From contig JBBDWO010000028.1 of assembly GCA_040902765.1 (NCBI GenBank), forward strand, positions 43,946-107,945: a DNA stretch of 64,000 bases, written 5' to 3'. Shown here one piece after another: positions 27,511 through 27,630 of this stretch. Every line of letters starts with the position of its first letter. Positions within the stretch are counted from its first letter, which is position 1. The notes under the pieces were generated by a model. It was given only the letters and a program-made list of their open reading frames with translations, was not told where the DNA came from and did not search any database. The position numbers and the translations under genes were made by a program. Source of the DNA: Acidimicrobiia bacterium (GTDB lineage: Bacteria; Actinomycetota; Acidimicrobiia; Spongiisociales; UBA11373).

Positions 27511-27630
27511 GAGGGGCGAGGGCCGAGGGGCGAGGGGCGAGTAGCGAGGGGCGAGGGGCGAGTAGCGAGGGGCGGGTCTTGCGAATTGCGAATTGCGAAT
27601 TGCGAATCGCGCCCTACGCCTCGTAGGGCG
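27511..27630. repeat. Heptamer array (GAGGGGC)x6, (GAGTAGC)x2, (GCGAATT)x4, followed by hairpin CGCCCTACG-CCT-CGTAGGGCG
   Basis: Read from the sequence; the array begins at the holA stop; the hairpin at 27610-27630 sits between convergent holA and greA and is a likely bidirectional terminator. Confidence 0.75.

What the first reader, a model, noticed from the sequence alone, without database searches (positions are those of the whole stretch)
27511..27630. Family of tandem heptanucleotide arrays (GAGGGGC / GAGTAGC / GCGAATT / CCAAGTA) at gene 3' ends
Four intergenic sites carry strictly 7-nt-periodic tandem units built on a GCGAG core: 1530-1606, 19843-19891, 27511-27615 and 42167-42249. At 42167-42249 the units are followed by their reverse complements, forming a long hairpin. 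At 27610-27630 a separate perfect hairpin follows. These are not CRISPR (no spacers, 7-nt period) and not typical REP. They may be a lineage-specific terminator or insulator repeat family that expands by slippage.
Basis: seen in the sequence. Interest (0 to 1): 0.5.

Follow-up and report, generated by a model that had tools for sequence, protein, structure and literature searches.

The report
Intergenic 7-base tandem repeat arrays
The spacers between several housekeeping genes of this Acidimicrobiia bacterium are filled with fast-evolving head-to-tail arrays of 7-base units, a known but poorly explained type of bacterial simple-sequence repeat that looks like a slippage by-product rather than a dedicated terminator family.

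Summary
Nine period-7 arrays lie in four spacers, plus two small relics. That is 8 scoring segments against 0.1 expected in shuffles, and no other non-triplet period is enriched. The window comes from an uncultured Acidimicrobiia bacterium. Array density is a lineage trait: 12-16 arrays per 100 kb in the window's clade, against 0.4 in more distant relatives.

The arrays turn over very fast. Among relatives whose HolA protein is 89-93% identical, the HolA|GreA spacer has four different states. The TTGCGAA array differs by exactly one 7-nt unit from the closest genome's copy.

Direct arrays have no RNA structure, no U-tract and no orientation bias relative to transcription. Hairpins arise only where an inverted array partner exists.

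Across 120 independent loci from many phyla, arrays avoid divergent (promoter-promoter) spacers, favour convergent ones and abut stop codons. GAGTAGC is no commoner than scrambled heptamers, so its spread across phyla reflects independent origins.

Best reading: these are heptanucleotide long simple-sequence repeats, like the cyanobacterial STRR arrays, the Xanthomonas arrays and Mrazek's LSSR5-11 class. They are made by slipped-strand mispairing in weakly constrained 3' spacers. This is a new member of a known kind. Why the period is 7 remains open.

The parts
1530..1550 (+). GCGAGTA x3 array. The units encode the last four codons and the TAG stop of Obg (...EEEASSE*).
   Evidence: Obg identified by Pfam
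1547..1586 (+). CCAAGTA / CCGAATA array, about 5.7 units, with a 21-nt super-period
1587..1603 (+). GGCTGTT x2.4 array, ending 8 nt before the TATCCTCC box
1612..1619 (+). TATCCTCC box, a -10-like element 4 nt before the ATG (1624) of the AAA-ATPase gene (the TATCCT hexamer, 1612-1617, lies 6 nt before it). A leaderless promoter is inferred. It marks the downstream limit of the array-filled spacer.
19842..19889 (+). GAGTAGC x6.4 perfect array. The stop codon of the ABC-ATPase gene (19862-19864) lies inside it (tail ...GEGVASSE*). The array is absent from the 89%-identical relative L121.
19901..19938 (+). 17-bp perfect hairpin made of inverted heptamer units (TCAACGC x2 / GCGTTGA x2.7; the direct array runs 19926-19944)
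19982..19989 (+). TATCCTCC box 9 nt before the leuS ATG at 19999 (the TATCCT hexamer lies 11 nt before it). Conserved in all close relatives, with arrays lying upstream of it.
27511..27574 (+). Main array, (GAGGGGC/GAGTAGC) x9.1 with a 21-nt super-unit. It starts 2 nt after the holA stop codon (27506-27508). 27513-27537 matches a G-quadruplex motif. It is hypervariable among relatives.
27579..27611 (+). TTGCGAA x4.7 array. It is one unit longer than in the closest genome (L220) and is also present in the 61%-identity relative L224/L225.
27610..27630 (.). Perfect hairpin CGCCCTACG-CCT-CGTAGGGCG overlapping the last codons and the stop codon (27614-27616) of the convergent greA gene. It is not itself built of heptamer units. 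No U-tract follows it on either strand.
42169..42196 (+). GAGGGGC / CAGGAGC / GAGGAGC array (about 3.6-4 units), starting 1 nt after the cupredoxin gene's stop codon. It forms the left arm of a long hairpin.
42223..42248 (+). [quoted passage not shown] It ends 19 nt before the recO ATG (42268). A TAGCCT -10-like hexamer lies in between.
43756..43770 (+). Minor GGGGAGG x2.1 array in a co-directional spacer. The same unit occurs in the closest MAG (L009, from position 2469).
45339..45353 (+). Relic two-unit array CCAAGTACCAGGTAC, upstream of another TATCCTCC box (45404)

Best explanation
These are heptanucleotide long simple-sequence repeats. They are arrays of 7-bp units that arise, grow, shrink, mutate and decay by slipped-strand mispairing during DNA synthesis, and occasionally by inverted duplication.

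They occur in the least constrained DNA of a compact genome: the stretch between a stop codon and either the next gene's core promoter or a convergent gene's end.

The tendency to make period-7 arrays specifically is a trait of the genome's lineage (an Acidimicrobiia clade here, and scattered clades in many other phyla). It is not a property of particular unit sequences.

Most direct arrays are probably neutral spacer filler. By-products include new C-terminal tails and stop codons for upstream genes. Where an inverted partner exists, they form stable hairpins that may help terminate transcription.

Shown: the arrays exist, they are over-represented, they are intergenic and biased to 3' ends, they change by whole units, they turn over fast, their density is lineage-specific, and they lack strand bias and structure.

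Inferred: slippage as the generating process, neutrality, and any terminator contribution from the hairpins.
For: - Period 7 alone is enriched: 8 segments against 0.1 expected.
- Whole-unit change: TTGCGAA is 29 nt in the window and 22 nt in L220, with identical flanks.
- 21-nt (three-unit) super-repeats occur inside arrays.
- Adjacent arrays differ by 1-2 substitutions per unit, for example GCGAGTA > CCAAGTA > CCGAATA.
- Turnover is fast. The HolA|GreA spacer has four different states among relatives at 89-93% HolA identity. GAGTAGC x6.4 is absent from L121, which is 89% identical in DNA.
- There is a lineage gradient: 12.5-15.8, then 5.4, then 0.4 arrays per 100 kb as LeuS identity falls. 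Other periods stay at background.
- Genomes with one GAGTAGC array carry unrelated period-7 arrays elsewhere at 7.4 per 100 kb.
- Direct arrays are unstructured (z about 0) and no terminator-like sites are found.
- There is no orientation bias relative to transcription.
- Arrays are depleted from divergent spacers and enriched in convergent ones, and they abut stop codons. This fits accumulation where constraint is weakest.
- GAGTAGC x3 is no commoner than composition-matched scrambles in viral contigs: 7 against 0, 6 and 6.
- Literature: heptanucleotide LSSRs are the most abundant long SSR class in many genomes, and slippage has been proposed as their origin (PMC4679880 and PMC4692102, summarising Mrazek 2007).
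Against: - Simple slippage does not explain why only period 7 expands and periods 5, 8, 10 and 11 do not.
- The TTGCGAA array next to greA is present in a relative with only 61% HolA identity. That is long retention for neutral DNA, unless it arose twice.
- 21% of arrays have an inverted partner, against 2% in the control. This may reflect selection for hairpins rather than mutation alone.
- Arrays recur directly upstream of leuS in several relatives, with different units. This could mean the presence of an array is itself selected.
- The gene calls behind the positional statistics are crude (third-position GC and ORF length).
Confidence: 0.7

Rival explanations
1. The arrays are a functional terminator or insulator system. 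They stop or insulate transcription between neighbouring genes, either as hairpins formed by inverted pairs or as unstructured protein- or Rho-loading tracts.
For: - Arrays are enriched in convergent spacers and depleted from divergent ones.
- They start at or within a few nucleotides of stop codons.
- Inverted partners are ten times commoner than in the control.
- Sites 2 and 4 fold into very stable hairpins.
- Arrays lie between a stop codon and the next gene's -10-like box.
Against: - Most arrays are direct and unstructured (z about 0).
- No hairpin is followed by a U-tract, and no terminator-like site is found.
- There is no orientation bias relative to the upstream gene (20 vs 23; 15 vs 18), so a strand-specific RNA signal is unlikely.
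- Close relatives lack the array at the same spacer without any replacement of similar design (L221, L121).
Confidence: 0.12
2. The arrays are copy-number-dependent expression tuners or protein-binding arrays for the downstream gene, as with the 7-bp repeats of H. influenzae hmw, V. cholerae ctxAB TTTTGAT, or the Nostoc recO/recF heptamers. Changing the number of units would shift upstream promoter geometry or recruit a binding protein.
For: - In co-directional spacers the arrays end 8-36 nt upstream of a conserved TATCCT(CC) -10-like box. In L126, L128 and L151 they abut it directly.
- Arrays recur before leuS in several relatives.
- There are experimental precedents for heptamer arrays affecting expression (PMC12721329; bioRxiv 10.1101/2022.06.06.494920).
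Against: - The main array lies between convergent genes, with no promoter downstream of it.
- Arrays are depleted from divergent promoter regions.
- Unit sequences differ at every site and between relatives, so no single binding specificity fits.
- The housekeeping genes involved (leuS, recO, obg) are not typical contingency loci.
Confidence: 0.1
3. The G-rich arrays (GAGGGGC) act through G-quadruplex formation in DNA or RNA, like the GGGAATC/GGGGATT heptamer repeats of Xanthomonas and Nostoc.
For: 27513-27537 (+) and 42224-42247 (-) match the G3+N1-7 x4 quadruplex motif. There is a precedent in PMC4692102.
Against: - Most units in the window (GAGTAGC, CCAAGTA, GGCTGTT, TTGCGAA, GCGTTGA) cannot form quadruplexes.
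- The G-rich array is lost or degenerate in close relatives.
- Five other quadruplex motif matches occur inside ordinary sequence of this 67% GC window.
Confidence: 0.04
4. A dedicated, horizontally spread mechanism writes specific heptamer units such as GAGTAGC, which would explain why identical units appear in many phyla.
For: - GAGTAGC x3 is found in at least 120 stretches from more than 12 phyla, in genomes of 36-75% GC.
- The same unit combinations (GAGTAGC with GAGGGGC, GAGTAGC with GCGAATT) recur in Planctomycetota and Rhizobiales.
Against: - Composition-matched scrambled heptamers are about as frequent: 7 against 0, 6 and 6 in viral contigs.
- There are only about 1,170 heptamer classes, so recurrence across 185,579 genomes is expected.
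- The co-occurring units are one- or two-step mutational neighbours of each other.
- Units differ between the closest relatives.
Confidence: 0.04

Closest known systems
Heptanucleotide long simple-sequence repeats (LSSR5-11) of Mrazek, Guo & Shah 2007, as summarised in PMC4679880 and PMC4692102
   Same: Tandem 7-nt units, far longer than chance allows. They are mostly intergenic and are abundant only in certain genomes scattered across phyla, Actinobacteria included. Slippage has been proposed as their origin.
   Different: This Acidimicrobiia clade and these units have not been described: no paper in the library contains the unit strings. The statistics on stop-codon abutment, spacer type and inverted partners were computed here. 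I could not read the original paper.
Cyanobacterial STRR (short tandemly repeated repetitive) heptamers of Calothrix and Nostoc
   Same: Several different heptamer units per genome, arranged as contiguous intergenic arrays that are often composites of different units.
   Different: The phylum, the GC content and the unit sequences are all different. The window's arrays are not STRR family members.
GGGAATC / GGGGA(T/C)T heptamer repeats of Xanthomonas and Nostoc (Rehm et al. 2015, PMC4692102)
   Same: Intergenic G-rich heptamer arrays. They vary in length and sequence between close relatives at the same gene pair. Some occur as convergent inverted pairs able to form hairpins, and they have quadruplex potential.
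   Different: In Xanthomonas one unit type dominates. Here there are many unrelated units, most of which cannot form a quadruplex.
TAACTGA direct repeats of marine Beggiatoaceae, cyanobacteria and Bacteroidetes (MacGregor 2015, PMC4679880)
   Same: The same heptamer array is found in distant phyla. The arrays are intergenic, the unit carries stop codons in all frames in one orientation (as GAGTAGC does), and they are mixed with other heptamer arrays.
   Different: TAACTGA sets lie mainly just upstream of start codons, in one orientation. The arrays here abut stop codons and show no orientation bias.
Haemophilus influenzae hmw1/hmw2 ATCTTTC 7-bp repeats (PMC12721329)
   Same: A heptamer array whose copy number changes by whole units. 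The array pairs with a complementary G-rich arm to form a long RNA hairpin. In that system, changes in repeat number required transcription.
   Different: The hmw array is a single contingency locus in a 5'-UTR with a demonstrated effect on expression. The arrays here lie at 3' ends of housekeeping genes and no phenotype is known.

Membership tests
Heptanucleotide long simple-sequence repeat (LSSR5-11 class) | Head-to-tail iteration of a 5-11 nt unit (here 7 nt) without spacers | tested here: met
   TRF reports period 7 with 0% indels at all four sites, and the sequence shows it directly.
Heptanucleotide long simple-sequence repeat (LSSR5-11 class) | Arrays longer or more numerous than chance allows in the same sequence | tested here: met
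   8 segments against 0.1 expected in dinucleotide shuffles; other non-triplet periods give 0-2.
Heptanucleotide long simple-sequence repeat (LSSR5-11 class) | Predominantly outside coding sequence | tested here: met
   All strong arrays in the window lie between genes. In the 120 external loci, 13 of 124 arrays fall inside crude ORF calls.
Heptanucleotide long simple-sequence repeat (LSSR5-11 class) | Length polymorphism in whole units between related genomes | tested here: met
   TTGCGAA is 29 nt in the window and 22 nt in L220 with the same flanks. Arrays are gained or lost at orthologous spacers.
Cyanobacterial STRR family | The specific STRR unit sequences (as I recall them, CCCCAGT, TTGGTCA and CAACAGT; not checked in a paper here), in heterocystous cyanobacteria | tested here: not met
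   The units here are GAGGGGC, GAGTAGC, TTGCGAA, CCAAGTA, GGCTGTT and GCGTTGA. The host is an Acidimicrobiia bacterium.
CRISPR array | Repeats of 23-50 nt separated by unique spacers of similar length | tested here: not met
   The units are 7 nt and contiguous, with no spacers.
REP/BIME-type dispersed palindromic elements | A conserved imperfect palindrome of 20-40 nt, dispersed in many copies | tested here: not met
   The units are not palindromic and no shared element occurs across the sites. Only the separate hairpins share a weak CCCTACG motif (14 occurrences against 5.9 expected).
Intrinsic (Rho-independent) terminator | A G+C-rich hairpin immediately followed by a U-tract | tested here: not met
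   No terminator-like site is found at any of the four spacers. Direct arrays are unstructured, and the hairpins at 19901-19938, 27610-27630 and 42169-42248 lack U-tracts. U-tract-independent termination, which I understand to occur in Actinobacteria, cannot be excluded.
G-quadruplex-forming heptamer repeats (Xanthomonas/Nostoc type) | At least four runs of three or more G separated by loops of 1-7 nt, and demonstrated folding | tested here: inconclusive
   The motif is met only at 27513-27537 (+) and 42224-42247 (-). Folding cannot be tested with these tools, and the other units fail the motif.
Phase-variable contingency locus (hmw-type 7-bp SSR) | The array lies within a promoter or 5'-UTR so that copy number changes expression of a variable surface or virulence gene | not testable with these tools
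   The arrays lie upstream of -10-like boxes of housekeeping genes or between convergent genes. No expression data are available.
Any Rfam RNA family | A covariance-model match at the gathering score | tested here: not met
   The only matches in the window are three tRNAs.

The most novel reading that the evidence does not exclude
Period-7 arrays are made by an active, lineage-specific process rather than by generic slippage. One candidate is transcription- or R-loop-associated instability that begins where ribosomes leave the mRNA at the stop codon. Another is a replisome or repair variant with a 7-nt register. Under this reading the resulting arrays are retained as gene-boundary elements. 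That would explain the exclusive period of 7, the abutment to stop codons, the avoidance of divergent promoter regions, the excess of inverted partners, and the step change in density between sister clades.
Probability: 0.1. Interest if true: 0.7.

Novelty: new member of a known kind. Interest (0 to 1): 0.3.

Why it matters
Heptamer arrays are a widespread feature of bacterial genomes that is largely ignored. They break short-read assemblies: contigs of the closest MAG start or end inside arrays. They rewrite gene 3' ends and create hairpins.

This window adds an uncultured Acidimicrobiia clade to the array-rich lineages. It also gives a clean comparison: sister clades differ roughly 30-fold in array density, and only at period 7. 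That contrast could be used to search for the genetic determinant of the unexplained preference for 7-nt units. On its own, though, the locus shows no new mechanism or function.

Tried and rejected
- Universal or horizontally spread GAGTAGC unit. Rejected: scrambled heptamers of the same composition are about as frequent.
- Canonical terminators or sigma-70 promoters at the arrays. None found.
- Known RNA family. None found.
- Strand-specific RNA role (Rho loading on the C-rich antisense strand, Shine-Dalgarno-like G-rich sense strand). No orientation bias, either across phyla or within the clade.
- A single 'GCGAG-core family'. Only two of the seven or more units share that core.
- Exact-protein look-up of GreA to find the source contig. 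Not on record.
- The source genome itself was not among the genome-contig hits; the best DNA match was 74% identical.
- The original Mrazek 2007 paper is not held. I relied on two papers that summarise it.
- A literature search for the unit strings found nothing.
- I did not follow sites 1 and 4 into orthologues. Sites 2 and 3 already showed the turnover, and the remaining database searches are costly.

Full report
**1. The observation**

Reading the four reported sites and running Tandem Repeats Finder on the whole window confirms indel-free period-7 arrays at every site.

- Site 1 (1530-1603): GCGAGTA x3, then CCAAGTA-type x5.7, then GGCTGTT x2.4.
- Site 2: GAGTAGC x6.4, perfect, at 19842-19889; GCGTTGA x2.7 at 19926-19944.
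- Site 3: (GAGGGGC/GAGTAGC) x9.1 at 27511-27574, organised in a 21-nt super-unit; TTGCGAA x4.7 at 27579-27611.
- Site 4: GAGGGGC-like x3.6 at 42169-42196, followed by its inverse TCCCTCG x3.7 at 42223-42248.

An exact-run scan finds 7 runs at period 7 and 0-2 at every other period from 4 to 15. A mismatch-tolerant scan finds 8 period-7 segments (226 nt) against 0.1 expected in dinucleotide-preserving shuffles. The other non-triplet periods are at background. Two small relics also lie in spacers: GGGGAGG x2.1 at 43756 and CCAAGTACCAGGTAC at 45339.

**2. Context**

The window is 67% GC. The flanking genes are ordinary housekeeping genes (Pfam):

| Site | Upstream gene | Downstream gene | Orientation |
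|---|---|---|---|
| 1 | Obg | AAA ATPase | co-directional |
| 2 | ABC ATPase | LeuS | co-directional |
| 3 | ORF with no Pfam hit (HolA, see below) | GreA | convergent |
| 4 | cupredoxin | RecO | co-directional |

A homologue search identifies the Pfam-less ORF as DNA polymerase III delta (HolA, about 327 aa). Its best matches are Acidimicrobiia MAGs.

The arrays start at or inside the upstream stop codon. Obg and the ABC ATPase both end in ...A-S-S-E-stop, encoded by GCGAGTAGCGAGTAG. In the relative L121, the ABC protein ends seven residues earlier, in unrelated sequence. At holA and the cupredoxin gene the arrays start 2 nt and 1 nt after the stop.

Downstream, the arrays stop short of a TATCCTCC box. 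This box occurs 4 times against 0.73 expected, and three of the four lie 4-9 nt before an ATG; the TATCCT hexamer lies 6-11 nt before it. It is conserved in front of leuS in all close relatives. I read it, by inference, as the -10 element of leaderless or very short-leader promoters.

So the arrays fill nearly all the DNA between a stop codon and the next core promoter, or between two convergent gene ends.

**3. Structure and known families**

- Folded as RNA, the direct arrays alone are unstructured (z = 0.06 to 0.55).
- Strong structure appears only where inverted units face each other. There is a 17-bp perfect stem at 19901-19938 (spacer z = -3.1) and the site-4 hairpin (z = -2.4).
- The separate 9-bp hairpin at 27610-27630 overlaps greA's last codons and stop codon.
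- No hairpin is followed by a U-tract.
- The consensus scan finds no terminator-like or sigma-70-like site at any of the four spacers.
- Rfam matches only three tRNAs in the window.

**4. Relatives: a lineage trait with fast turnover**

LeuS relatives from metagenomes show a gradient in period-7 arrays:

| Group | Period-7 arrays per 100 kb |
|---|---|
| Window | 12.5 |
| Relatives with LeuS at least 69% identical | 15.8 |
| Relatives at 65-68% | 5.4 |
| Relatives at 62% or less | 0.4 |

Periods 4, 5, 8, 10 and 11 stay at background in every group. The relatives' units are different, for example TCCCGTC x19, CCCGCTG, GGGTAGC, TTGCGCA and ACCAGCT. Several relatives carry an array directly upstream of the leuS -10-like box, each with its own unit.

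L121 aligns to window 16699-25387 at 89% DNA identity. It lacks the GAGTAGC array entirely. It keeps a diversified version of the GCGTTGA array (GCGTGGA/GCGTGAA) and has no left hairpin arm.

The HolA|GreA spacer has four different states among relatives with 89-93% HolA identity:

| Locus | State |
|---|---|
| Window | (GAGGGGC/GAGTAGC) x9 plus (TTGCGAA) x4 |
| L220 (GCA_035514255.1, the closest genome) | degenerate remnant GAGCGAGTAGCGAGGG plus (TTGCGAA) x3 |
| L221 | no array; an inverted GAGGGCGAGTAG remnant supplies greA's stop codon |
| L222 | CCAGTCN units, with the contig ending inside the array |

The TTGCGAA arrays of the window and L220 differ by exactly 7 nt and share the same flanks. 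A TTGCGAA array is also present at this spot in a relative with 61% HolA identity (L224/L225), but not in L221 or L223. I cannot tell whether that reflects long retention or repeated origin.

**5. Wider distribution and the control**

The hits come from Chloroflexota, Planctomycetota, Bacteroidota, Verrucomicrobiota, Rhizobiales, Gammaproteobacteria, cyanobacteria, Gemmatimonadota, Streptomyces and Acidimicrobiia, in genomes of 36-75% GC. Some carry the same partner units as the window:

- GAGGGGC in a Pirellulaceae genome.
- GCGAATT in Rhizobiaceae and Hyphomicrobiaceae.
- The full unit set in the Acidimicrobiia MAG.

This looked striking, so I ran a control. In viral contigs, GAGTAGC x3 gives 7 stretches, and three composition-matched scrambles give 0, 6 and 6. 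With only about 1,170 heptamer classes, recurrence of any one unit across 185,579 genomes is expected. I therefore reject the idea of a special, horizontally spread unit.

What is general is the heptamer habit. More than 500 nt away from the ascertained array, the same loci carry 55 further period-7 arrays (7.4 per 100 kb), against 1-4 arrays for each other period.

**6. Position and orientation**

These statistics use crude gene calls based on third-position GC and ORF length, applied to the 120 loci.

- Spacer type: co-directional 46 (45 expected from the lengths of other spacers in the same loci), convergent 28 (15 expected), divergent 5 (18 expected). Chi-square p = 4e-5; Fisher convergent-versus-divergent odds ratio 7.8, p = 1e-5.
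- Distance to the stop codon: in co-directional spacers the composite array begins a median of 6 nt from the upstream stop, and about 40% include the stop. In convergent spacers it abuts at least one stop in nearly all cases.
- Orientation relative to transcription is balanced: 20 vs 23 across phyla, and 15 G-rich vs 18 C-rich on the sense strand within the clade.
- Inverted partners: 50 of 241 arrays have an exact inverted 12-mer partner within 200 nt, against 5 of 241 in a reversed-sequence control.

**7. Interpretation**

Seven lines of evidence point the same way:

- Arrays change by whole units.
- They contain three-unit super-repeats.
- Neighbouring units are mutationally related.
- They are replaced quickly at orthologous spacers.
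- They have no structure.
- They have no strand bias.
- They concentrate where sequence constraint is weakest.

All of this fits simple-sequence repeats generated by slipped-strand mispairing and tolerated in 3' spacers (confidence 0.7). But it is what one expects if arrays are removed by selection from promoter-rich divergent regions, so it does not by itself show terminator function.

Hairpins from inverted pairs may contribute to termination. U-tract-less terminators are, to my knowledge, common in Actinobacteria. That remains inference.

The published literature already describes this class:

- Heptanucleotide LSSRs as the most abundant long SSR class in certain genomes, Actinobacteria included; cyanobacterial heptamer arrays; Xanthomonas/Nostoc GGGAATC-type repeats; and Beggiatoaceae TAACTGA.
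- Functional single-locus cases in H. influenzae and Nostoc, and a V. cholerae ctxAB study (abstract only).

What stays unexplained is why only period 7 expands, and what makes sister clades differ about 30-fold.

**8. Verdict**

It is a new member of a known kind, not a new terminator family. Interest is modest at 0.3. The residual novel reading is an active, 7-nt-registered and possibly transcription-linked generating process, with probability about 0.1.

Noticed in passing
window 40646-40740: An exceptionally stable nested hairpin. The outer arms are AGGGGGTGCGCGAATAGG... / ...CCTATTCGCGCACCCCCT and the inner stem is CAGGTTTCGGCTT / AAGCCGAAACCTG. MFE is -104 kcal/mol for the 181-nt region folded, z = -7.2. 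It lies between two + strand genes (one ending at 40637, the next starting at 40802). It is not made of heptamer units.
   Followed up: partly
window 1612-1619, 19982-19989, 45404-45411 (+) and 51053-51060 (-): A TATCCTCC box occurs 4 times against 0.73 expected. Three copies lie 4-9 nt upstream of an ATG, and the box is conserved upstream of leuS in all close relatives. It is probably the -10 element of leaderless or short-leader promoters in this lineage.
   Followed up: partly
window 27612-27628, 43719-43740 and 10 other sites: The CCCTACG/CGTAGGG heptamer occurs 14 times against 5.9 expected (2 of 100 shuffles reach 14). It forms the arms of the greA-end hairpin and of hairpins near 43700-43745. 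It may be a weak shared terminator-stem motif.
   Followed up: partly
L121 1-1052 versus window ~16699: The 89%-identical relative L121 stops being collinear with the window at window position ~16699. Its first 1,052 nt have no match anywhere in the window, which points to a rearrangement or insertion boundary.
   Followed up: no
L009 pos 1-19, L026 4123-4193 (contig end), L222 1335-1359 (contig end), L111 3-42: Contigs of the closest MAG (GCA_035514255.1), of the metagenome contig L222 and of a second Acidimicrobiia MAG (L111) begin or end inside heptamer arrays. The arrays evidently fragment short-read assemblies of this lineage.
   Followed up: partly
L122 9391-9527: A relative with 71% LeuS identity carries a TCCCGTC array of about 19 units (137 nt). 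This is the longest array seen in the clade.
   Followed up: no
window 13800-13902 and 55041-55069: Two repeats with periods that are multiples of three: a period-3/21/24 tract (CAC/CGA-rich) lying within the predicted + strand ORF 13702-14973, and a perfect 12-nt x2.4 repeat (TCGGCCTCATGC). They are unrelated to the heptamer arrays.
   Followed up: no
L221 ~1900-1915: In this close relative, greA is 5 codons longer and ends in GAG GGC GAG TAG. This is a heptamer-array remnant on the opposite strand from the window's array, and it supplies the stop codon.
   Followed up: partly
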